Virus record (IMG/VR): IMGVR_UViG_3300034093_002316
Span: 3,930-67,929 of that record
Strand: one strand, 5' to 3'
Length of the DNA stretch: 64,000 bases
Origin: a virus
Under the pieces are notes generated by a model, which worked only from the letters and a program-made list of their open reading frames with translations, was not told where the DNA came from and ran no database searches. Position 1 is the first letter of the stretch; each line of letters opens with the position of its first letter. A program made the position numbers and the translations under genes. Shown one piece after another: positions 43,829 to 55,703 of this stretch.

Positions 43829-44071
43829 TTAACCTCGAATGCGTTCTATGATTATGCGGGTTGCTTCTTCTGCTTCTGGCAATGTGTGGTCTGCTTGTAT
43901 GCCTAGGGACTCCATCATGTTGTGAACAGTGGCCCATCGTGCACGCAGCGTGCCAACCAATTCATCTTCGTGGCCATATCGCTGTTCGGCTTGCTTTAAC
44001 TCTAACCACATCATGGCGTCTGTCTTTTGAATCTCTGTTACCATTGCTGCTTTTGTCATTGTCTTTTTCAT
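43829..44071 (-). CDS. Early hypothetical protein
   Basis: AGAGAGAT-ATG leader. Confidence 0.7.
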   Translation of the reverse strand: MKKTMTKAAMVTEIQKTDAMMWLELKQAEQRYGHEDELVGTLRARWATVHNMMESLGIQADHTLPEAEEATRIIIERIRG

Positions 44072-44116
44072 ATCTCTCTTGTTACGTATTATTACTCTAC
44101 TCTCTCTTATATTATA

Positions 44117-44320
44117 TTACTTGCTTAGTGCTTTAAGGCATTCCGGACATCCTACTTCTTCTATTCCGGCAGCGGCTGCGTGGTTGCTACTTAATGCTGG
44201 TGTACCACATAGGTTGCCTTTGCCGGATAAATATGCATGTGCCGTATTGGTCCACACATTGCCTTTGTTACCGAAAATCATAAACCCTTTTCCTAACTCT
44301 TTTACATTTACCTTTGTCAT
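44117..44320 (-). CDS. Early hypothetical protein with putative Zn ligands
   Basis: H..LCG...GCPEC; promoter cassette upstream. Confidence 0.7.
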   Translation of the reverse strand: MTKVNVKELGKGFMIFGNKGNVWTNTAHAYLSGKGNLCGTPALSSNHAAAAGIEEVGCPECLKALSK

Positions 44321-44386
44321 ATCTCTCTCTTTTTAATTTATATAAATATAATGATTTAATCTGTGCGTGTCAACCGAATAGTCAAC

Positions 44387-44545
44387 TTATTTGTGACTGT
44401 CTAATACGTACATCATGAACGTCGTATTCGGATACTTTGCTTTGTATATTGTATAGTCTACATAGCTTATTGCTAATGCTATCGCCGTTACTACTAAAGC
44501 TGCTACTACTAATTTGATTTTTACTTTTCTGCTTAATTTATACAT
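44387..44545 (-). CDS. Small membrane protein (52 aa, not in ORF track)
   Basis: MYKLSRKVKIKLVVAALVVTAIALAISYVDY...; own promoter cassette. Confidence 0.65.
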   Translation of the reverse strand: MYKLSRKVKIKLVVAALVVTAIALAISYVDYTIYKAKYPNTTFMMYVLDSHK

Positions 44546-44623
44546 CTCTCTATCTTTTTAATTATACTTAAATATAATGATAATAAGCACACGTGTCAAG
44601 CATTTTGCTAACTTTTTTTTACA

Positions 44624-44675
44624 GTGCAAAGCCGACGCCTTTCAGCGCCGACTTGCTATGTTGAGAGATATGTTT
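44624..44675 (-). ncRNA. Anti-leader element copy 1 (AAACAUAUCUCUCAACAUAG plus GAAA-capped stem)
   Basis: Follows the ATPase stop codon; stem AGUCGGCGCU-GAAA-GGCGUCGGCU with G-U pairs on the minus strand. Confidence 0.6.
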
Positions 44676-44677
44676 GC

Positions 44678-45628
44678 TTATTCTGCTGCGATGATTTGTT
44701 CTGCTATCATCTCCTCTGCGTTATCAAATCCCATCGCACATATTCTTGCCGCTTTGATAAAGCTTCTGAGGTTAATGTCAATGCCGGCATACTTCGCATC
44801 CAACGACTTCATTATCTCTAATGCCTTTTGCTTAGCCGCTAACGGAATGCTACGCTCCATACCTTCCATCAATTGCTCCATTCGAGTAAACATTTGCGTC
44901 GTGTTCATTGTGATATCCGACACGAAGCTTCTACTACGGATAGCCTCATCCAAGCGGCTTTGGTGGATGTTGCTGATGAATATGATGCGTCCTGTAAATT
45001 CGAAATGCGGTGGGATCGGATCGCCATACTCATCCTTAAGCGGCTTCGAAGAGATATAAGATATCTTGCGAGTGTCATAGCTGTCTAATGCCGCTTTAAG
45101 AATATTCACAGCATCGTCATCTTTGAATACCGAATCACAGTCATCCAATACGATTATCTTATCCGAGTTTTGATATAGCGTAATAAACAATCCGGCTGCG
45201 GTAGCACGACCCTTAAAGTGTACGAAGTCTTTGGACTCTGACAAACCTAATCCTTTAAGTGTCTCCTTAACCAAATGCGTCTTACCTACGCCAGCCATAC
45301 CCGTAATTACTAAGGAAGGTTGGATACCTCTACCTACCATCTTTGTGAGGCGCTCCAAGTTGCCAAACATCACTTGCGGATCTCTTGACTCTAATACTGT
45401 CATGAACGACATCTTTGCTGGAGCCGTGCTAGCTGGAGCCGTGCCGGCTTCTTTGCGGGACATTCTAGTTACTCTGCCGGAGCCGCTAACAACTAATACT
45501 TCCTTGTTCGCCTCAGCATTTCTTAACTGAACTGGACGGATTGCATCCTTCGGTGCAAACTCACCTGTCTTAACATTCTTTGCAAATAACTTGCCTTTTA
45601 CTCTTACTGGTTCAAATACATTTAACAT
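44678..45628 (-). CDS. AAA+ ATPase
   Basis: Walker A GMAGVGKT, Walker B IIVLDDCD, sensor IIFISN, Arg finger AIRSRS. Confidence 0.85.
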   Translation of the reverse strand: MLNVFEPVRVKGKLFAKNVKTGEFAPKDAIRPVQLRNAEANKEVLVVSGSGRVTRMSRKEAGTAPASTAPAKMSFMTVLESRDPQVMFGNLERLTKMVGRGIQPSLVITGMAGVGKTHLVKETLKGLGLSESKDFVHFKGRATAAGLFITLYQNSDKIIVLDDCDSVFKDDDAVNILKAALDSYDTRKISYISSKPLKDEYGDPIPPHFEFTGRIIFISNIHQSRLDEAIRSRSFVSDITMNTTQMFTRMEQLMEGMERSIPLAAKQKALEIMKSLDAKYAGIDINLRSFIKAARICAMGFDNAEEMIAEQIIAAE

Positions 45629-45716
45629 ATCTCTCTCTTTTTAATTTATATAAATATAATGATTTTTTTGGTACGTGTCAACCGTTTCGGTAACTTTTTT
45701 TAAGAAAAGTTTCTGG

Positions 45717-45971
45717 CTATTCTTCGCCAGCTAACTCCTCATGTAGATCCGTTAACCACTGCCGATCCATCATCTCTTGCTTATATGTCTTAACACAATA
45801 CAATTCGAATGGAGCAATTGGATCCTCTGATTTGAACTCGACATGGAATTCATCCCATACCTGACGCGACTCTTCGAAGGTTGCTAATACATCTGCCGGA
45901 GCTATGTCTAATTCATACTGCTGAACGATCCCTCCGGTTAACTCTCCCTTTACTGTTACATTTACTTTCAT
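45717..45971 (-). CDS. Early hypothetical protein
   Basis: Promoter cassette and AAGAT-ATG leader. Confidence 0.7.
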   Translation of the reverse strand: MKVNVTVKGELTGGIVQQYELDIAPADVLATFEESRQVWDEFHVEFKSEDPIAPFELYCVKTYKQEMMDRQWLTDLHEELAGEE

Positions 45972-46064
45972 ATCTCTTATCTCTTATTATTATACTTAAA
46001 GATAATGATAATAACCGTGCGTGTCAAGCATTTTGCAAACTTTTTTTAAACTTTTTTTTTTTTG

Positions 46065-46178
46065 TAGTCAGGGAGGACTCGAACCCCAATCTCTCGGCAA
46101 GACTTAATGTATATTCTCGGGTCATGACTCCTCACCTTTTACTGCTCACCAAGCGCGTTACCAATTAGCTACCTGACT
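46065..46178 (-). ncRNA. tRNA-like RNA 1 (AGUCAGG/CCUGACU-A family), enlarged interior
   Basis: Acceptor AGTCAGG/CCTGACT, D-like TAGCTAATTGGTAACGC, T-loop GGTTCGAGTCC; no canonical anticodon arm. Confidence 0.7.
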
Positions 46179-46257
46179 GTAATAAGAGGCTTCGTCAACG
46201 GTGCACTGCGATAAGGTCTTCTGAAATTATCTGTGTACAAAGTATCCACCTCTTACA

Positions 46258-46313
46258 CGTCCGCAAGGGCCAACATCGCTGCTGACCCGGGGACTATGTT
46301 GAGAGATATGTTT
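46258..46313 (-). ncRNA. Anti-leader element copy 2 (AAACAUAUCUCUCAACAUAG plus GCGA-capped stem)
   Basis: 20-nt identity with copy 1; stem GGGUCAGCA-GCGA-UGUUGGCCC. Confidence 0.6.
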
Positions 46314-46755
46314 ACTCCTCCGTTTGGGTTCCTAACCCGTCATTAACCGACTGCATTATTTCTTCCTCGCTAGGACCGCAGTCATCGTCTTCTTCGCCCT
46401 TCTCCAACTCTACAATGTCATCTGCAGCTTCCTCAACCAATTGGTCCAAAGCGCCGGTGACGTGCTCCATAATTTCGTACACATTAACATCGACACGATT
46501 TAATTCGATGCGGTTATCCCAATTTAACTCAAACTCCGCGGAACTTAAATCGACCAAGTCGCTGCTGTTATAGTCGAGGGCACGTTCGATTTTATTAGCA
46601 ATTTCCTCAGCAAACTCCGGAGTCAATTTGAATTCCTTCTCGACAACAACTACCGGCTCGATGCTTTGGATCAATGCAATAACATTGTCAATGCTTACTA
46701 CTGAGGTTAACTCCTTTGCTCCCTCTAACTGTGCAATTAAATTTTCTTTTGTCAT
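46312..46755 (-). CDS. Early acidic hypothetical protein
   Basis: AGAGAGAT-ATG leader; very acidic. Confidence 0.7.
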   Translation of the reverse strand: MTKENLIAQLEGAKELTSVVSIDNVIALIQSIEPVVVVEKEFKLTPEFAEEIANKIERALDYNSSDLVDLSSAEFELNWDNRIELNRVDVNVYEIMEHVTGALDQLVEEAADDIVELEKGEEDDDCGPSEEEIMQSVNDGLGTQTEE

Positions 46756-46828
46756 ATCTCTCTCTTTTTAATTATATTTAAATTTAATGATTTTTTTGTT
46801 CGGTTCCTAATTTTTTAGCAACTTTTTT

Positions 46829-46945
46829 TTAATAAATTACAGGCTCAATAAAGTTACCAATTACCAATTGAACTGTGGCATACAATGCCGATACGGTGAA
46901 CAATGTTACGAAAACTACGTCTACTACTTTTTCTACTCTTTTCAT
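46829..46945 (-). CDS. Small membrane protein (38 aa)
   Basis: MKRVEKVVDVVFVTLFTVSALYATVQLVIGNFIEPVIY behind its own promoter cassette. Confidence 0.6.
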   Translation of the reverse strand: MKRVEKVVDVVFVTLFTVSALYATVQLVIGNFIEPVIY

Positions 46946-47030
46946 ATATCTCTCTTTTTAAATTTATAATATAAAAATAATGAATTAAATAATGCGTGTC
47001 AAGCTTTTTTGAAACTTTTTTAAACTTTTT

Positions 47031-47177
47031 TTACTTGAATCGAAACTCGTCTAATTCGGCTTCAACATCTTTGAGTGCCTGGCCAACTTCATCGTCTTGC
47101 TGGAATAAGTCATATGACTCCATGATGTTTCTCAGTTCTCGTACTTTTGCTTCTAATGCTTTTAGTTCTCTCTTCAT
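47031..47177 (-). CDS. Small coiled-coil protein (48 aa)
   Basis: MKRELKALEAKVRELRNIMESYDLFQQDDEVGQALKDVEAELDEFRFK. Confidence 0.6.
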   Translation of the reverse strand: MKRELKALEAKVRELRNIMESYDLFQQDDEVGQALKDVEAELDEFRFK

Positions 47178-47180
47178 TTC

Positions 47181-47273
47181 TTAATTGTAAAGTTCCACAT
47201 AAATTAAAGCGTCAATCATCAATTCGGACTGACATATCATCATTCTGATTTCTCTTATTTCCTTTGCTGTCAT
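47181..47273 (-). CDS. Small protein (30 aa)
   Basis: MTAKEIREIRMMICQSELMIDALIYVELYN, tightly packed between neighbours. Confidence 0.45.
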   Translation of the reverse strand: MTAKEIREIRMMICQSELMIDALIYVELYN

Positions 47274-47274
47274 G

Positions 47275-47394
47275 TTAAGCCGTTTTAAGTGTGAATACTA
47301 TTGCCGGGATCAAACCGATAACTCCTAATACATTACCGAATGCTAACATTGTGCCTCCGATTACTGCTACTGCGAAAATTAATGCGTTTCTCAT
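47275..47394 (-). CDS. Small membrane protein (39 aa)
   Basis: MRNALIFAVAVIGGTMLAFGNVLGVIGLIPAIVFTLKTA behind a promoter cassette. Confidence 0.6.
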   Translation of the reverse strand: MRNALIFAVAVIGGTMLAFGNVLGVIGLIPAIVFTLKTA

Positions 47395-47478
47395 ATCTCT
47401 TATTTTTTTATCTATACTTAAAGATAATGATAATAACCATGCGTGTCAAGCATTTCGGCAAAAAAGTTTAAAAAAAGT

Positions 47479-48219
47479 TTATAGGTATTGTTCCAACAAT
47501 TCGATGCCTGGAAGCGATGCCAATGCCAATTCAGCACCTCTAACTAACTGTCTGGCTCTTTCATTGGTTACTCCCATCTCCTCAGCAATCTGATCCATAC
47601 ATTGTGGATACTCCCGTCCAATGCCATAGAATCTGCGTATAGCTTCTTCCTGCTTCGGCTTAAGCTGCGCTAAGACTCTGTTTAAGTCGTATTGCAAATC
47701 AGCCATGTCCCTCGAGGATTTCACGCTATCCGCAGCCAAGTAACGATCCGCATAGGTTTCCTTGTTCTCATCATCGCCTACCGGAGTGTGGATACTCTTT
47801 GTAGAATACTCTTCGGTTGCTGTGCGATGTGAAGGAATCCTAACCACTCTGGATAAGTCATTGAGTGCCTTTTGCAATTCGGCTCTGATGTACCACACCG
47901 CAAAGGTAATGAATTTGACACCTTTCTCCGGATTGAATCTTTCAGCCGCTTCGAAGAGTCCTACATTGCCGAATGCGATGAGATCCTCCAATGCCAATCC
48001 CATTCCTTGATACTGCTTTGCTACTTGAATCACAAAGCGAAGGTTGGCTTCTACCAAGGCATTAACGGCCTTTCTGTCTCCGGCGGCTGCGGCTCTGCCT
48101 AATGTGGTTTCTTGTTCTCTGGTAAGGGCACCAATCTTCTTGGTCTCTTGGATATATCTCAATGTGCTTGCTACATCCGTTACAATTGCTCCTGTGCTTA
48201 CGTGAATTTTCTTTGCCAT
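47479..48219 (-). CDS. RNA polymerase sigma-70 family factor (RpoD/RpoS-like regions 1.2-4)
   Basis: LTREQE, LVEANLRFVIQVAKQY, DLIAFGNVGL..AAERF, KFITFAVWYIR, VRIP, IAEEMGVTNERARQL. Confidence 0.93.
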   Translation of the reverse strand: MAKKIHVSTGAIVTDVASTLRYIQETKKIGALTREQETTLGRAAAAGDRKAVNALVEANLRFVIQVAKQYQGMGLALEDLIAFGNVGLFEAAERFNPEKGVKFITFAVWYIRAELQKALNDLSRVVRIPSHRTATEEYSTKSIHTPVGDDENKETYADRYLAADSVKSSRDMADLQYDLNRVLAQLKPKQEEAIRRFYGIGREYPQCMDQIAEEMGVTNERARQLVRGAELALASLPGIELLEQYL

Positions 48220-48260
48220 AACTCTCTTTTGTTTTTAAATGAATAACTAATTGCAACCGA

Positions 48261-48458
48261 CTACTTGCCGGTTGCTAAGAACTTAAATGATACTCTCGTC
48301 GGCTTCTCAACCTTCGCCCGGTACTCTGCGTTGCGTTCTCCTTGACGAATAGCTTGTGCTACTGTGGCAGTGTTGCCTCCGGTTCTTGCATCTTTACTCA
48401 TTTGAGCCATTACTGCTCCTTGTCTTTCGAATCCTGAATTTCTTCCTTTTTTTGCCAT
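48261..48458 (-). CDS. Early basic hypothetical protein
   Basis: Promoter cassette; likely co-transcribed with the sigma gene. Confidence 0.65.
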   Translation of the reverse strand: MAKKGRNSGFERQGAVMAQMSKDARTGGNTATVAQAIRQGERNAEYRAKVEKPTRVSFKFLATGK

Positions 48459-48531
48459 CTCTCTTATTTTTTAATTATAATATAAATATAATGATTATTT
48501 CTGTGCGTGTCAAGCATTTTCGAAACTTTTT

Positions 48532-48741
48532 TTAAGCTTCGATAATATCGGATTCCTGGAACTCGCGGATGTCAAAACTAACCATCTCATCCAATTCCTC
48601 TTCATCATAGCCAAAATCCTCAGCTACCAATTCGCGTGTTTTTTCCTCAGCGTCTATTTCGCTAGCAGCTTTAATGTAATACAAACTAGAATATTCAACG
48701 CCTTCAACATCGGTAACAATTACTACAAATAACTTTTTCAT
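48532..48741 (-). CDS. Early acidic hypothetical protein
   Basis: Promoter cassette. Confidence 0.7.
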   Translation of the reverse strand: MKKLFVVIVTDVEGVEYSSLYYIKAASEIDAEEKTRELVAEDFGYDEEELDEMVSFDIREFQESDIIEA

Positions 48742-48815
48742 ATATCTCTCTTTTTAAATTAATACTTAAATATAATGAAAATAATAATGCGTGTCAAGCA
48801 TTTTGCAAACTTTTT

Positions 48816-49046
48816 TTAATCTTTTTTTATGCCGTAACGCTTATCATACTGTTCACTGTCATACACATCAGCCGCTACCTCAGCTTCCGTCTCAACCATA
48901 TAAGCTAAGCAAGCAATGATATCCTCAATCTCAAAGCCATCCATTAATGCCTGGCGAGTTAAGTTTTTCGCAGCTACGGCTAAATCATTTTGGTAAATAC
49001 GATTTGTTACACTTGCAAATCTGTCTAATACATTAATGTCTCTCAT
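48816..49046 (-). CDS. Early hypothetical protein
   Basis: Promoter cassette. Confidence 0.7.
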   Translation of the reverse strand: MRDINVLDRFASVTNRIYQNDLAVAAKNLTRQALMDGFEIEDIIACLAYMVETEAEVAADVYDSEQYDKRYGIKKD

Positions 49047-49121
49047 ATCTCTTTCTTTTTTTATTAATACTTAAATATAATAAATAAAACGATGCGTGTC
49101 AAGCATTTTGCTAACTTTTTT

Positions 49122-49412
49122 TTAACTTATTTCAACACATTCAAAATACACACCTTCCGCCAAAGCCAAATTAAACGTCGTGTCATCTACGTCAATAATC
49201 AATTCCAATAAAAACTCATCGTCAATTTGCTTATCCCAATCGTCACTTCCCTCAATCCATTCTACTAACTCCGTATTACTATAACAATATTCGGCGAATC
49301 TCCTTCTCACTTTTTTCAACAAATCCAATTTGTCTTCTGCGAACATTTCTATTCCGCTTTCTACTACTCCACCTCCAAATGCGTAACCAATTTCCAATTT
49401 AAATTCTCTCAT
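49122..49412 (-). CDS. Early acidic hypothetical protein
   Basis: Promoter cassette (TTAGGA variant). Confidence 0.7.
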   Translation of the reverse strand: MREFKLEIGYAFGGGVVESGIEMFAEDKLDLLKKVRRRFAEYCYSNTELVEWIEGSDDWDKQIDDEFLLELIIDVDDTTFNLALAEGVYFECVEIS

Positions 49413-49492
49413 ATCTCTTATTTTTAAATTAATACTTAAATATAATGAAAATAATAATGCGATCCTAATAAAAAGTAAAAAAAGTTTGCCGG

Positions 49493-49873
49493 CTAATTAA
49501 AGCCAACAAACCCTCGTTCTAATTCTAATCCCAAATCCTCAGCTATTTCCTTTAATCGGTAATACGGAGCATTCTCAATCTCTTGTGTTACAATGTTATC
49601 TATTCTTGCAATGCTATAACCGCATCCGATACCATAAAGGGTAACGGTCTTTTGGATAACTTCCATTGCGCCGGAAGACTGATCCCAATCAAATTCGCCC
49701 AACTCAGTCACGGTAACACCTAATGCAAATGCTGTGGACTCTACGGCTTCATTCCACAATGCGAATACTTTATCGCGTACCACATCAGCTACTACATCAT
49801 TGTGGTCATACATTTCGCGGCTCCATGGTTTTGTGATTTGGATTCCGTACTCTACTTTTGCTGTCTTTTTCAT
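49493..49873 (-). CDS. Early hypothetical protein
   Basis: Promoter cassette. Confidence 0.7.
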   Translation of the reverse strand: MKKTAKVEYGIQITKPWSREMYDHNDVVADVVRDKVFALWNEAVESTAFALGVTVTELGEFDWDQSSGAMEVIQKTVTLYGIGCGYSIARIDNIVTQEIENAPYYRLKEIAEDLGLELERGFVGFN

Positions 49874-49944
49874 ATATCTCTCTTTTTAATTTATATAAAG
49901 ATAAGGAAAAAAGAGATGCGTGTCAAGTATTTTGACAACTTTTT

Positions 49945-50148
49945 TTAACTTATTTCAATTACGGTAACTGGTACACTCGGATCCATGCCATAATAACATG
50001 TAATGTCGATATCCTCTAATTCGACAATACGTGCATTTTTTCTAGTTTTTACTACTTTTGCCCGTATTAATACATCCGGCGTGTTATCCCAAGAAAATTG
50101 TACAATTTGTCCTTTTGCTACAGTTCCTAATATTACTAAATTTTCCAT
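49945..50148 (-). CDS. Early hypothetical protein
   Basis: Promoter cassette. Confidence 0.7.
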   Translation of the reverse strand: MENLVILGTVAKGQIVQFSWDNTPDVLIRAKVVKTRKNARIVELEDIDITCYYGMDPSVPVTVIEIS

Positions 50149-50234
50149 GTCTCTCTTTTAAATTAATACTTAAAGATAATAATAAAAAGCACACGTGTCA
50201 AGCAAAATCCAAAAAAAGTTTGAAAAAAGTTTCG

Positions 50235-50595
50235 AAAAGGAGTCCCGGGAATAAGAGAGAGAAACCCAGGACCCCATTATCAACACAGTGCCTCAACACT
50301 GCCTTACCTAACCAACCGATCCGCCGGGAGTGTCTTTCGAGCACCATGATCCCGGACCCTGTCGGTTTATTTGAGAGATATGTTTTCATACAAAGGCCCG
50401 GAGGTGTTAGCTTGTGGCTTTTCCCTCGGGAGTGCGTAGCTTGTGGTTACCGGGCCTAGGTTCCATGTGATCGACGCTCAATACCCGTACCCGATATCCG
50501 GAGGCACTCAAAGACTAATACGACACACTTACCAATGTCTGATCCTTAAGGTCGCTCTCTTACGGCATTTGGTTGGATCAACCTTCCTTCTTATT
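50235..50595 (-). ncRNA. Candidate ~360-nt structured ncRNA carrying two anti-leader sequences
   Basis: Promoter-like TTGGAA..TATTAT at ~50605-50633; stems UGAUCC/GGAUCA, AGGCCCGG/CCGGGCCU, AACCGA/UCGGUU, CAGUG/CACUG; terminal hairpin plus U-tract. Confidence 0.65.
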
Positions 50596-50616
50596 TACAC
50601 TTATATAATATGAAAT

Positions 50617-51344
50617 CTAAAAATGAATTCCAACCGAATCCAAAAATAAATCTAAAAATCGTCTAAAAATAACGGCGCGTTGGACTAAAAATAGACCCGG
50701 GATGGTGCCGGTTTCGTCTAAAAATACGAGTCGCTATAGCTAGGTCAGCAAATGTAACGTGCTTATAGTGCATCTTCGTCTAAAAATCAAAACCCCATTT
50801 CGTCTAAAAATAGCCTGATTTCGTCTAAAAATAGCAGGGAGGAGCGGATATGCATCTAAAAATAGCCTGATTTCGTCTAAAAATAGGACTCGCTATATAT
50901 AGCATCTCCATCAGTAGTTGCACTATAACACATATAGCACATCTATATACCGAGACGTATAAGCTAGCGATCACGTAGATCCATCAGTATAGCTACCGTT
51001 AATACACCTACACACAACACTAAAAATGGCAATCCTAATCCAGACATATGATTCGTTTTCTATAATATAAGGAAACCCATCTAAAAATCAAACCTGGAAT
51101 TGAACTAAAAATCGTCTAAAAATAGCCGGAACGGTTGGAATTGTGGATTCCCTTTTACACTGCGTATACGTGCGTCTAGGCGGCTTGATATATACGTATA
51201 TACCGTGCCTTGTAATAAAGAGTCTATGCCCCATGGAAACATTGTATTGGGAGGGTGATATATATAACCAATCTGGACTACCTATACTAGACACAATTTC
51301 GTCTAAAAATAGACTGCCATATCTGCGTATTTTAATCTAAAAAT
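50617..51344 (+). repeat. Array of 16 same-orientation CTAAAAAT repeats (often TTTCGTCTAAAAATAG)
   Basis: Copies at 50617, 50652, 50663, 50685, 50718, 50780, 50804, 50825, 50856, 50877, 51020, 51081, 51105, 51116, 51303, 51337. Confidence 0.9.
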
Positions 51345-55367: not shown

Positions 55368-55703
55368 TTATTTATTTTCTACAATCTCAATACAGTATTT
55401 AAGACAAGCAAGTTCTGCTTCGTCGTATGTGTACTCACCTGTATCTGACAATTCATCCATAATCCATATATGTTTCGATCTGTGCTTCTCTCTAAACCAT
55501 CTAAATGCTTGTGAGAATGTTGGTGCTGAAATATGATTTGTTTTATTATGATTATCATACTTAAACATTACAACTTCACCAATATTAGGGATTTTATACA
55601 TTAATTCTTTTGTTGTAAAATCATACAAATTAAAACAAGGTTCATTAAATCCAAGTTGCTTCATTCTTAAAGCTAACTCATAAGGTACAAATTCTTTCTC
55701 CAT
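55368..55703 (-). CDS. Hypothetical protein, MEKEF.YELALRMKQLGF family, copy 2
   Basis: Paralog of 53489..53845; TTGGA-type promoter upstream. Confidence 0.7.
   Translation of the reverse strand: MEKEFVPYELALRMKQLGFNEPCFNLYDFTTKELMYKIPNIGEVVMFKYDNHNKTNHISAPTFSQAFRWFREKHRSKHIWIMDELSDTGEYTYDEAELACLKYCIEIVENK

What the first reader, a model, noticed from the sequence alone, without database searches (positions are those of the whole stretch)
50235..50595. ~360-nt structured ncRNA at the head of the early block, displaying anti-leader sequence twice
Seen: a GC-richer non-coding stretch downstream of a promoter-like site (~50605-50633). It has nested stems: UGAUCC/GGAUCA; AGGCCCGG/CCGGGCCU enclosing two CCACAAGCUA direct repeats; AACCGA/UCGGUU enclosing CCGGGA/UCCCGG and a GAAA loop; and CAGUG/CACUG. 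The AACAUAUCUCUC sequence sits between stems. The terminal hairpin GGGGUCCUGGG/CCCGGGACUCC-UUUU has the loop UUUCUCUCUCUUAUU, complementary to the AAUAAGAG(AG) leaders at starts 48458, 47394, 49412, 55703 and 63952. Inference: a multi-target regulatory RNA, with the CCACAAGCUA repeats as possible protein-binding sites.
Basis: partly seen in the sequence, partly recalled or inferred. Interest (0 to 1): 0.82.

Follow-up and report, generated by a model that had tools for sequence, protein, structure and literature searches.

The report
Phage RNA antisense to early-gene leaders
An uncultured freshwater phage carries a conserved, folded, non-coding RNA of about 365 bases whose exposed pyrimidine-rich segments mirror the short start-site leader shared by the phage's early genes, so it probably controls that whole gene class, although no experiment shows this yet.

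Summary
Rfam 15 has no match.

Pattern scans found 57 distinct low-GC relatives in viral and lake metagenome contigs. Compensatory changes support the helices: the core (9 of 17 pairs, 0 of 500 shuffles), the module B outer stem (11 distinct stems), the 5' helix (modest) and the terminator stems.

The 15-nt terminator loop UUUCUCUCUCUUAUU stays fixed while its stem varies. It has at least 8 nt of perfect complement in 10 of 13 early-gene start regions and in 0 of 37 other starts. The linker CAUAUCUCUC matches 9 of 13 and 0 of 37.

A distant relative keeps only the antisense motif plus a terminator at the same position. The best reading (about 0.5) is a base-pairing regulator of early-gene translation.

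Points against it:
- No RNA data exist.
- The match is weak in some relatives.
- The repeated CCACAAGCUA is not conserved.

This scan found the same RNA family before on other DNA, and I reach the same reading independently.

The parts
50605..50633 (-). Promoter of the RNA: TTGGAA (50633-50628), 17-nt spacer holding one ATTTTTAGA iteron, TATTAT (50610-50605). The wider conserved form is GGTTGGA-N16-19-(C/T)(A/T)TAT(T/A)ATAT.
   Evidence: Consensus scan. The regex for this promoter matched upstream of the RNA in 51 of the 57 distinct relatives (about 47 in the clean form; four rows are regex matches at the mismatch limit, e.g. L129-type). The 6 without a match had too little upstream sequence or another context.
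50235..50600 (-). The non-coding RNA, about 365 nt. The 5' end is inferred to lie 5-8 nt after the -10 box. The 3' end is at the U tract.
   Evidence: No Rfam family matches. No tRNA or tmRNA is called here. The ORF is not conserved.
50540..50598 (-). 5' domain. It has a leader-like AAAUAAGAAGGAAGG. Helix UGAUCC/GGAUCA (50580-50575 with 50545-50540) encloses the invariant AACCAAAUGC and a small hairpin whose loop GUAAGAGAG (50563-50555) is itself complementary to the terminator loop.
   Evidence: Alignment A3 of 18 sequences. In the helix, 3 of 5 pairs show compensatory change and 96.7% of cells are paired. A rival local hairpin GGUUG/CAACC is also compatible, with 1 compensatory pair. The internal site was seen in the duplex scan.
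50458..50539 (-). Variable insert between the 5' domain and module B. It is absent or replaced in many relatives.
   Evidence: L134, L193, L115 and L176 lack it; L116, L150 and L160 carry other inserts.
50394..50457 (-). Module B: outer helix AGGCCCGG/CCGGGCCU, conserved internal loop UAACCACA opposite UAACACCU, and a variable inner hairpin that holds the two CCACAAGCUA copies in this phage.
   Evidence: in 26 of 27 sequences all 7 outer-stem positions pair, with 11 distinct stem sequences. The offset was chosen as the best of a few. The module lies 5' of the core in one subgroup and 3' of it in the other.
50370..50387 (-). Linker with the 'anti-start' sequence AAACAUAUCUCUCAAAUA. CAUAUCUCUC (50382-50373) is the exact complement of the GAGAGAUAUG leader plus start codon.
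   Evidence: at least 8 nt of perfect complement in 9 of 13 early starts, 0 of 37 other starts; 2 of 2000 shuffles reach this. Predicted unpaired probability is 0.56 here, and 0.5 or more in 12 of 19 relatives.
50314..50367 (-). Core element: helix AACCGA/UCGGUU, invariant internal loop (CAGGGU opposite CGGA), helix CCGGG/CCCGG, a 5-nt linker, then a hairpin GUG(C)UC-GAAA-GACAC with a bulged C.
   Evidence: Alignment A1 of 49 sequences. 9 of 17 pairs show compensatory change, 90.9% of cells are paired, 0 of 500 shuffles reach this, and slid controls give 23-47% paired. RNAalifold gives the same helices. The middle helix cannot vary by construction, because it was part of the search pattern.
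50281..50313 (-). Module D: invariant GGUUAGGUAAGG, hairpin CAGUG-UUGAGG-CACUG, then UGUU.
   Evidence: The hairpin changes in relatives with pairing kept (CGAU-GUGA-AUCG, CAACG/CGUUG, CAGAG/CUCUG, CAGUAGA/UCUACUG). This was read from the sequences; no formal count was made.
50235..50275 (-). Terminal hairpin with an 11-bp stem and two G-U pairs that are valid only on this strand. The 15-nt loop UUUCUCUCUCUUAUU (50264-50250) is followed by a U tract.
   Evidence: 63 such hairpins in 57 sequences, 27 distinct stems, near-invariant loop. (the loop motif with at most 1 mismatch in 53 of 57). (10 of 13 early starts, 0 of 37 others). Unpaired probability is 0.87.
44040..50175 (-). Putative targets: the early block. 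13 start regions were examined (starts 50148, 49873, 49412, 49046, 48741, 48458, 48219, 47394, 45971, 45628, 44545, 44320, 44071), each with a leader of the form A-rich + (AAUAAGAGAU / AAGAGAGAGAU) + AUG. Most sit behind a repeated promoter.
   Evidence: Starts 46755 and about 46946 carry the leader too, but the script missed them.
50616..51344 (-). Context: an array of 13 same-strand ATTTTTAGA(CGA) repeats directly upstream, reaching into the RNA promoter.
   Evidence: 16 copies in the window against 3.2 expected; 13 of them here.. Conserved upstream of the RNA promoter in relatives.

Best explanation
This is the gene for a modular, structured, non-coding RNA of about 365 nt. It stands as the first transcription unit of the early region of a large (about 160-175 kb) uncultured freshwater myovirus.

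The RNA shows two single-stranded pyrimidine-rich sequences. One is the 15-nt loop of its terminator hairpin. The other is a linker, CAUAUCUCUC. Both are antisense to the roughly 12-nt purine-rich leader plus start codon shared by the phage's early mRNAs.

Inferred mechanism: the RNA pairs in trans with these start regions and covers positions of about -15 to +3. This blocks ribosome loading and/or creates double-stranded cleavage sites. One stable RNA would then damp or shut off translation of the whole early class, playing a role like the T4 RegA/RegB proteins but made of RNA.

The other modules (core, module B, 5' domain) are inferred to give stability, bind proteins or gate access to the loop. 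The 5' domain loop GUAAGAGAG can pair with the terminator loop.

Shown: conservation, covariation, complementarity and synteny. Inferred: transcription, pairing in vivo, and the direction of the effect.
For: (1) Real RNA family.
- nhmmer finds homologues on the same strand upstream of the sigma gene in 18 of 49 related loci.
- A core pattern finds 17 viral and 88 metagenome stretches. After removing high-GC chance hits, 57 distinct sequences remain.

(2) Covariation.
- Core: 9 of 17 pairs compensatory, 0 of 500 shuffles.
- Module B outer stem: 26 of 27 fully paired, with 11 distinct stems.
- Terminator hairpins: 27 distinct stems around a fixed loop.
- 5' helix: 3 of 5 pairs compensatory.
- G-U pairs fit this strand only.

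(3) Not coding. The window's ORF start and frame are kept in 2 of 51 sequences.

(4) Complementarity in the window.
- Loop: 10 of 13 early starts and 0 of 37 other starts have at least 8 nt of perfect complement; 16 of 2000 shuffles reach this.
- Linker: 9 of 13 and 0 of 37; 2 of 2000 shuffles.
- In an RNAduplex scan of the whole minus strand, most of the 25 best loop sites (about 21 by my count of the coordinates) lie in 44-50.6 kb, most at early start regions.

(5) Same relation in relatives. Each locus's own loop was compared with its own early starts: 15 of 18 (L003), 12 of 18 (L005), 7 of 7 (L010), 13 of 15 (L030), 11 of 15 (L031).

(6) The antisense motifs outlast the other modules.
- L024 and L027 have the anti-start plus two CU-loop hairpins and no core.
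- L034 (sigma 62% identical) has, behind the same repeat array and promoter, only about 100 nt holding AAACAUAUCUCUCUCU and a terminator.
- Several relatives carry two CU-loop hairpins in tandem.

(7) The loop is predicted to be open: unpaired probability 0.87 here and 0.8 or more in 15 of 21 relatives, against a whole-RNA mean of 0.36-0.47.
Against: - No transcript evidence. All 24 listed runs that hold the stretch are DNA, so expression, ends and timing are unknown.
- The single-sequence fold is not more stable than shuffles (z = -0.93).
- Loop and leaders are both low-complexity (CU against GA), so part of the match comes from composition. 16 of 2000 loop shuffles do as well.
- No regulator-target covariation was seen, because both sides are nearly invariant.
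- Where the leaders have drifted, the loop has not followed: own loop against own early starts gives L014 1 of 10, L027 1 of 11, L009 3 of 9, L040 3 of 6.
- More distant relatives (L032-L041) keep the leader, but no CU-loop hairpin was seen within 10 kb either side of sigma. The leader therefore has a function of its own, and the RNA is not needed for it.
- About two thirds of the RNA (core, module B, 5' domain, module D) is conserved and is left unexplained by an antisense role.
- In 31 of the 57 sequences the element is the 3' part of a small-ORF mRNA, so action in cis cannot be excluded.
- The core model did not match the two nearest cultured phages, so no culturable system is at hand.
Confidence: 0.5

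Rival explanations
1. Protein-binding or scaffold RNA. The invariant CU loop, the ACCACA/AACAC internal loop and the core's internal loop would be docking sites for host or phage proteins, for example a pyrimidine-binding RNA-binding protein, ribosomal protein S1 or RNA polymerase. The resemblance to an antisense of the leaders would then follow from purine-rich leaders and pyrimidine-rich loops.
For: - Most conserved positions lie in internal loops flanked by co-varying helices, as in protein-binding RNAs.
- The loop does not track leader drift in L014-type and L027 relatives.
- Composition-matched shuffles sometimes reach the observed match (16 of 2000).
Against: - The linker motif includes the complement of the start codon, and only 2 of 2000 shuffles reach its match.
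- Two different antisense registers of one leader occur in one RNA.
- The minimal orthologue L034 keeps only the anti-start sequence.
- No protein partner is identifiable here.
Confidence: 0.18
2. Cis-acting 3' untranslated element. The ancestral and main role would be to fold back on the leader of its own mRNA, or of the mRNA it ends. This would control translation or decay of a small membrane peptide, as in hok-type type I toxin mRNAs. The window's copy would be a derivative that lost the ORF.
For: - In 31 of 57 sequences the same promoter drives one or two small hydrophobic ORFs (27-35 aa, conserved GAYLDYRFN in one group). Their stop codon lies in or next to the first helix of the core.
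- In L183 the element follows a longer protein gene.
- In the window, CAUAUCUCUC follows directly after the stop codons of genes 44678..45628 and 46312..46755, and both genes start with the exact complement.
- A 27-aa hydrophobic ORF (50964-51047) lies just upstream behind a promoter of the same type.
Against: - The window's RNA has no conserved ORF. Its own 5' leader-like segment matches the loop for only about 7-8 nt.
- 26 sequences share this ORF-less architecture with a conserved 5' domain, so it is not a decayed copy.
- I saw no complementarity to the start region of the upstream 27-aa ORF. This was checked by eye.
Confidence: 0.14
3. Transcript tied to DNA-level functions of the neighbouring repeat array. 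It could be an origin-activating or primer RNA, or a polymerase-modifying (put-like antitermination) RNA at the head of the early region.
For: - 13 phased repeats lie directly upstream, one of them inside the promoter spacer.
- The order array, promoter, RNA is conserved even in distant relatives.
Against: - The RNA ends in a strong hairpin plus U tract, and each downstream early gene has its own promoter. Read-through control is therefore not needed.
- Nothing in the RNA matches a known origin or put RNA.
- This reading does not explain the antisense motifs.
Confidence: 0.08
4. The stretch encodes the 63-aa protein of ORF 50198..50389.
For: An ATG-initiated open frame exists in the window.
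Against: - The same start and frame are found in 2 of 51 relatives.
- Frame 0 has any upstream ATG in 13 of 51.
- The ends scatter from +0 to +206 nt past the core.
- Indels among relatives are not multiples of three.
- Substitutions are compensatory in helices.
Confidence: 0.01

Closest known systems
Staphylococcus aureus RNAIII and RsaE-type sRNAs. Their pyrimidine-rich hairpin loops, including a terminator loop, pair with ribosome-binding sites of several mRNAs. Basis: PMC2837412 and PMC2790875, for which I saw only the search listing and the start of the abstract; the details are recalled.
   Same: A large, multi-hairpin RNA. The seed sequences sit in hairpin loops and are repeated within one RNA. 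They are complementary to the translation start regions of many mRNAs. The expected outcome is translation arrest plus decay.
   Different: - This RNA is phage-encoded and its targets are the phage's own early genes.
- The target is not a Shine-Dalgarno sequence but a GA-repeat leader next to the start codon.
- There is no sequence or Rfam relation.
- The host is probably one that does not use Shine-Dalgarno pairing.
c4 antisense RNA of phages P1/P7 and CI RNA of satellite phage P4 (recalled knowledge; my search returned no primary paper).
   Same: A phage-encoded antisense RNA, made at the head of the operon it controls. It acts on more than one complementary site in phage mRNAs. It is linked to tRNA-type processing: here, some relatives start the RNA with a real tRNA-Ser.
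   Different: - Those RNAs are about 70-80 nt immunity factors of temperate elements and act on one operon.
- This RNA is about 365 nt, in what looks like a virulent large myovirus, with 13 or more separately promoted targets.
- Processing was not tested here.
T4 RegA (translational repressor of early mRNAs) and RegB (nuclease cutting early ribosome-binding sites). Basis: review PMC3014915, search listing only; the details are recalled.
   Same: The proposed biological role: class-wide post-transcriptional shut-off of early genes through their start regions.
   Different: Those are proteins. Here the specificity would come from RNA-RNA pairing.
hok-type type I toxin mRNAs with a 3' fold-back element (recalled knowledge).
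   Same: In 31 of 57 relatives a small hydrophobic ORF is followed by a structured 3' region that carries complements of the 5' leader.
   Different: The window's copy has no ORF. No separate antitoxin RNA was seen. Toxicity is unknown.
Earlier entries of this scan for the same RNA family in other genomes (e1-5644735, e1-5668669, e1-5668699, e1-5678904), and the csRNA catalogue of Fremin et al. 2023 (PMC10690425; abstract and outline read).
   Same: The scan entries share short words with this stretch and the same loop, and reach the same reading. The catalogue screened the IMG/VR collection in which this phage lies, so it may list this RNA.
   Different: The scan entries are AI notes, not publications.

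Membership tests
Any Rfam 15 family | Covariance-model match at the gathering score | tested here: not met
   At gathering score, only four tRNAs at 62.8-63.5 kb match in the window. At E up to 10 over 49800-51100 there are only microRNA-type noise hits of 19 bits or less. Eight related loci gave only tRNAs.
Trans-acting base-pairing sRNA with loop seeds (RNAIII / RsaE kind) | Own promoter and terminator | tested here: met
   By sequence only. The promoter is conserved in relatives. The stem-loop plus U tract has co-varying stems.
Trans-acting base-pairing sRNA with loop seeds (RNAIII / RsaE kind) | Conserved single-stranded seed presented in a hairpin loop | tested here: met
   The loop is near-invariant across 27 distinct stems. 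Predicted unpaired probability is 0.87.
Trans-acting base-pairing sRNA with loop seeds (RNAIII / RsaE kind) | Complementarity to start regions of several mRNAs, beyond chance | tested here: met
   10 of 13 and 9 of 13 early starts against 0 of 37 others; 16 and 2 of 2000 shuffles. Weak in L014, L027 and L009.
Trans-acting base-pairing sRNA with loop seeds (RNAIII / RsaE kind) | Expressed as a discrete RNA that changes target translation or stability | not testable with these tools
   No RNA run holds the stretch, and the host is not cultured.
c4 / CI type phage antisense RNAs | Cut out of the operon leader by RNase P-type processing; immunity function in a temperate element | not tested
   The only hint is a tRNA-Ser fused upstream in L129, L146 and L163. 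I did not look for lysogeny genes.
Type I toxin mRNA with fold-back 3' element | Small hydrophobic ORF on the same transcript | tested here: not met
   There is no conserved ORF in 50235-50600. The feature is met in 31 of 57 relatives.
put-like processive antitermination RNA | Lies between a promoter and the operon it lets polymerase read through, without its own terminator | tested here: not met
   The RNA ends in an 11-bp hairpin plus U tract. The next gene has its own promoter at 50201-50173.
tRNA / tmRNA | Cloverleaf or tmRNA called by ARAGORN | tested here: not met
   ARAGORN calls five tRNAs at 62.3-63.5 kb and none here.

The most novel reading that the evidence does not exclude
The RNA may act on the ribosome rather than, or as well as, on mRNAs.

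- Its invariant 5' segment AGAAGGAAGGU (50591-50581) is identical at 9 of 11 positions to the Shine-Dalgarno oligo AGAAAGGAGGU that was used to probe the Flavobacterium johnsoniae anti-SD. By eye it can pair at 10 of 11 positions with ACCUCCUUUCU (passage of PMC7797042).
- Bacteroidia ribosomes keep that 3' tail sequestered. Only ribosomes lacking bS21 read strong SDs (abstracts of PMC7797042 and PMC9976891).
- A phage RNA that carries both an extended SD and CU-rich tail-like loops could capture or re-programme a ribosome subpopulation for, or against, the GA-leader early mRNAs.

The host, and so its 16S tail, is unknown. The segment is absent from the ORF-bearing subgroup.
Probability: 0.06. 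Interest if true: 0.9.

Novelty: new variant of a known kind. Interest (0 to 1): 0.62.

Why it matters
If the reading holds, a virulent phage times its whole early programme with one RNA that recognises a sequence tag shared by the early mRNAs. This would be an RNA counterpart of the protein-based early shut-off known from T4.

It would do so in a host lineage (probably Bacteroidota, inferred) where translation starts without Shine-Dalgarno pairing and where almost nothing is known about phage post-transcriptional control.

The family is abundant in lake metagenomes. Its modules can be compared across about 57 natural variants. The minimal forms (L034, L027) mark out the part to test.

The conserved core, module B and 5' domain are new RNA motifs without a known function.

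Tried and rejected
- **Rfam.** Searches at the gathering and permissive thresholds gave nothing.
- **Phage collection.** A blastn search of the phage collection with the RNA region found no match.
- **Exact 20-mer scan.** A scan of viral contigs with an exact 20-mer of module B found nothing.
- **Bacterial genomes.** The core pattern gave 45 hits in bacterial genomes, all in regions of GC 0.55 or more and without the rest of the element. I take these as chance, so no host or prophage copy was found.
- **Cultured relatives.** The core model R1 did not match Microcystis phage Mel-JY01 or Flavobacterium phage immuto, the nearest cultured relatives by baseplate protein (54% and 42% identity). With no positive control among such records, this shows little. 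R1 also missed the divergent L018 version.
- **Expression.** No RNA holder was listed among 24 runs, all lake-water DNA.
- **Alignment A2.** The MAFFT alignment of the 3' half (A2) misplaces the stem strands, so I did not count pairs on it and used per-sequence folds instead.
- **16S 3' end.** I tried to obtain a Bacteroidota 16S 3' end by a family search. It returned only a tally for control genomes and no loci, so the anti-SD idea is untested.
- **Rejected: repeated protein sites at CCACAAGCUA**.
- **Rejected: the 63-aa ORF**.
- **Rejected: module B's AACACCUCC as an anti-SD mimic.** Its CCUCC part is a co-varying stem.
- **Rejected: the GA leader as an ordinary SD.** It lies only 1-4 nt from the AUG.
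- **Papers.**
  - PMC10690425: abstract and outline read.
  - PMC9976891 and PMC7797042: passages read.
  - All other papers: search listing only.
  - Searches turned up no paper that describes this RNA, though these searches are far from exhaustive.
  - Supplements are closed, so the csRNA catalogue could not be checked.
Full report
**What the window is.** The window is part of an IMG/VR virus record of 67.9 kb, judged about 40% complete.
- Relatives reach 158-176 kb.
- It has myovirus baseplate genes, an endolysin, five tRNAs and a sigma-70-type factor at 47479-48219.
- The nearest cultured phages by the baseplate wedge protein are Microcystis phage Mel-JY01 (54%) and Flavobacterium phage immuto (42%).
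- Runs that hold the DNA are lake-water metagenomes.
- Late genes have A-rich leaders without a clear Shine-Dalgarno sequence.
- The repeated early promoters read TTG-N20-TATCTTTA, which fits the Bacteroidota type as well as sigma-70.
- A Bacteroidota host is my inference, not a result.

**The observation.** A promoter-like site lies at 50633-50605. It is followed by about 365 nt without a conserved ORF, and then by an 11-bp hairpin with a 15-nt loop and a U tract. The single sequence does not fold better than shuffles (z = -0.93), so the case rests on comparison with relatives.

**Relatives.**
- The sigma protein brought in 49 loci. nhmmer found the RNA on the same strand upstream of sigma in 18 of them.
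- A pattern for the most conserved part, the 'core', found 17 stretches in viral contigs. 16 of these were on contigs already found through sigma.
- The same pattern found 88 stretches in metagenome contigs.
- It found 45 in bacterial genomes. All 45 lie in DNA of GC 0.55 or more and are chance hits.
- After filtering, 57 distinct sequences of GC 0.34-0.42 remain.
- No Rfam family matches the window or eight related loci, apart from tRNAs.

**Architecture.** The family is modular.
- 26 sequences, including the window, are ORF-less. Their order is: 5' domain, a variable insert, module B, the anti-start linker, the core, module D, and the CU-loop terminator.
- 31 sequences have the same promoter followed by one or two small hydrophobic ORFs. 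The core follows at the stop codon, then module B, then one or two CU-loop hairpins.
- Inserts vary. Three sequences begin with a real tRNA-Ser, and two carry a tRNA-like insert that ARAGORN does not call.
- L008 has module B inserted into the core.
- L024 and L027 have the anti-start plus two CU-loop hairpins and no core.
- L034 has, behind the same repeat array and promoter, only about 100 nt with the anti-start and a terminator.

**Covariation.**
- Core: in 49 sequences, 9 of 17 pairs show compensatory change and 90.9% of cells are paired. 0 of 500 shuffles reach any of the five measures, and slid controls give 23-47% paired. RNAalifold agrees. The middle helix could not vary because the search pattern fixed it.
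- Module B: the 7-bp outer stem is fully paired in 26 of 27 sequences, with 11 distinct stem sequences.
- Terminator-type hairpins: 63 hairpins have 27 distinct stems around a nearly fixed loop. The loop motif occurs with at most 1 mismatch in 53 of 57 sequences.
- 5' helix UGAUCC/GGAUCA: 3 of 5 pairs are compensatory, but this comes from few sequences. A competing local hairpin is not excluded.
- Module D's hairpin changes with pairing kept. I read this and did not count it.

**Not coding.** The window's ORF start and frame recur in 2 of 51 sequences. An upstream ATG in that frame occurs in 13 of 51, and the ends scatter.

**The antisense relation.** Thirteen early start regions were examined.
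- The loop has at least 8 nt of perfect complement in 10 of them. The linker has this in 9. Neither has it in any of 37 other minus-strand starts.
- Among 2000 composition-preserving shuffles, 16 (loop) and 2 (linker) do as well.
- In a duplex scan of the entire minus strand, most of the 25 best loop sites (about 21 by my count) fall in 44-50.6 kb. Most are early start regions, and one lies inside the RNA's own 5' domain.
- The leader motif is confined to the early block, apart from a few starts at 55703, 63631 and 63952.
- The loop is predicted to be open, and the linker moderately so.
- In relatives, the own loop against own early starts gives a strong relation in most loci (15 of 18, 12 of 18, 7 of 7, 13 of 15, 11 of 15). 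It is weak in L014 (1 of 10), L027 (1 of 11), L009 (3 of 9) and L040 (3 of 6).
- More distant relatives keep the leader, but no CU-loop hairpin was seen within 10 kb either side of sigma.

**Reading.** The antisense motifs are the parts that persist when all else is lost or reshuffled. This favours a base-pairing function on the early start regions (confidence about 0.5).

The direction (repression) and the timing are inferred. The repeat array reaches into the promoter, which suggests that a DNA-binding protein sets when the RNA is made.

The rivals are listed with their evidence: a protein-binding RNA, a cis-acting 3' element of small-ORF mRNAs, and an origin- or polymerase-linked transcript. 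The large conserved remainder of the RNA is not explained by any of them.

**Comparison with what is known.**
- In working principle it resembles RNAIII/RsaE-type loop-seed RNAs and the c4/CI antisense RNAs of P1/P7/P4.
- In biological role it resembles T4 RegA/RegB.
- It is a member of no catalogued family.
- This scan met the same family before on other genomes and read it the same way. A wider set of CU-loop RNAs facing GA-rich leaders was noted in marine T4-like phages. Those are AI notes, which I did not use as evidence.
- A published screen of IMG/VR for structured RNAs may list it, but I could not see the tables.

**Verdict.** This is a new variant of a known kind of regulator, of good but not exceptional interest until a transcript and an effect are shown.

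Noticed in passing
window 50616-51344 (minus strand): An array of 13 same-orientation ATTTTTAGA(CGA) repeats, one of them inside the spacer of the RNA's promoter. The order array, promoter, RNA is conserved in relatives, including distant L034. It may be a regulator-binding array, an origin or a packaging site.
   Followed up: partly
window 50964-51047 (minus strand), promoter 51091-51064: A 27-aa hydrophobic ORF behind a promoter of the same type as the RNA's. In 31 of 57 relatives, small membrane-peptide ORFs (one group with conserved GAYLDYRFN) are fused upstream of the core element, with the stop codon in the core's first helix.
   Followed up: partly
window 44663-44672 and 46301-46310 (minus strand): The anti-start sequence CAUAUCUCUC also sits directly after the stop codons of genes 44678..45628 and 46312..46755. 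Both genes begin with its exact complement GAGAGAUAUG, so 5'-3' pairing within one mRNA is possible. The second copy opens a non-coding stretch of about 240 nt that ends in a tRNA-like element (46065-46178).
   Followed up: partly
L129 3072-3153, L146 7095-7176 (and L163): In these relatives the RNA begins with a genuine tRNA-Ser(GGA) instead of the 5' domain. L115 and L124 carry a tRNA-like insert between module B and the anti-start that ARAGORN does not call. This suggests RNase P/Z-type processing of the transcript.
   Followed up: partly
L034 5740-5890: A distant relative has, at the same position, only an RNA of about 100 nt: the anti-start motif followed by a terminator. It is a natural minimal form.
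   Followed up: partly
window 50581-50591 (minus strand): The invariant 5' segment AGAAGGAAGGU is identical at 9 of 11 positions to the Shine-Dalgarno oligo used on Flavobacterium johnsoniae 30S subunits (PMC7797042). It lies 12 nt before an invariant AUG that opens only a 2-codon frame here. In L010 an upstream 58-codon ORF ends at the UGA inside GGUUGAUCC.
   Followed up: no
window 50555-50563 against 50250-50264: The loop GUAAGAGAG of the 5' domain is complementary to the RNA's own terminator loop, so a loop-loop contact or self-masking is possible. It is present in about half of the ORF-less members only.
   Followed up: partly
window 44040-50175 and loci: Early genes form one-gene cassettes. 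Each has a near-identical promoter (GGTTGAC/GGTTGGA ... TTATCTTTA) and a leader of 17-24 nt ending in GAGAGAU 1-4 nt before the AUG. That is too close for a normal Shine-Dalgarno element. The leader is kept in relatives where no such RNA was seen nearby.
   Followed up: partly
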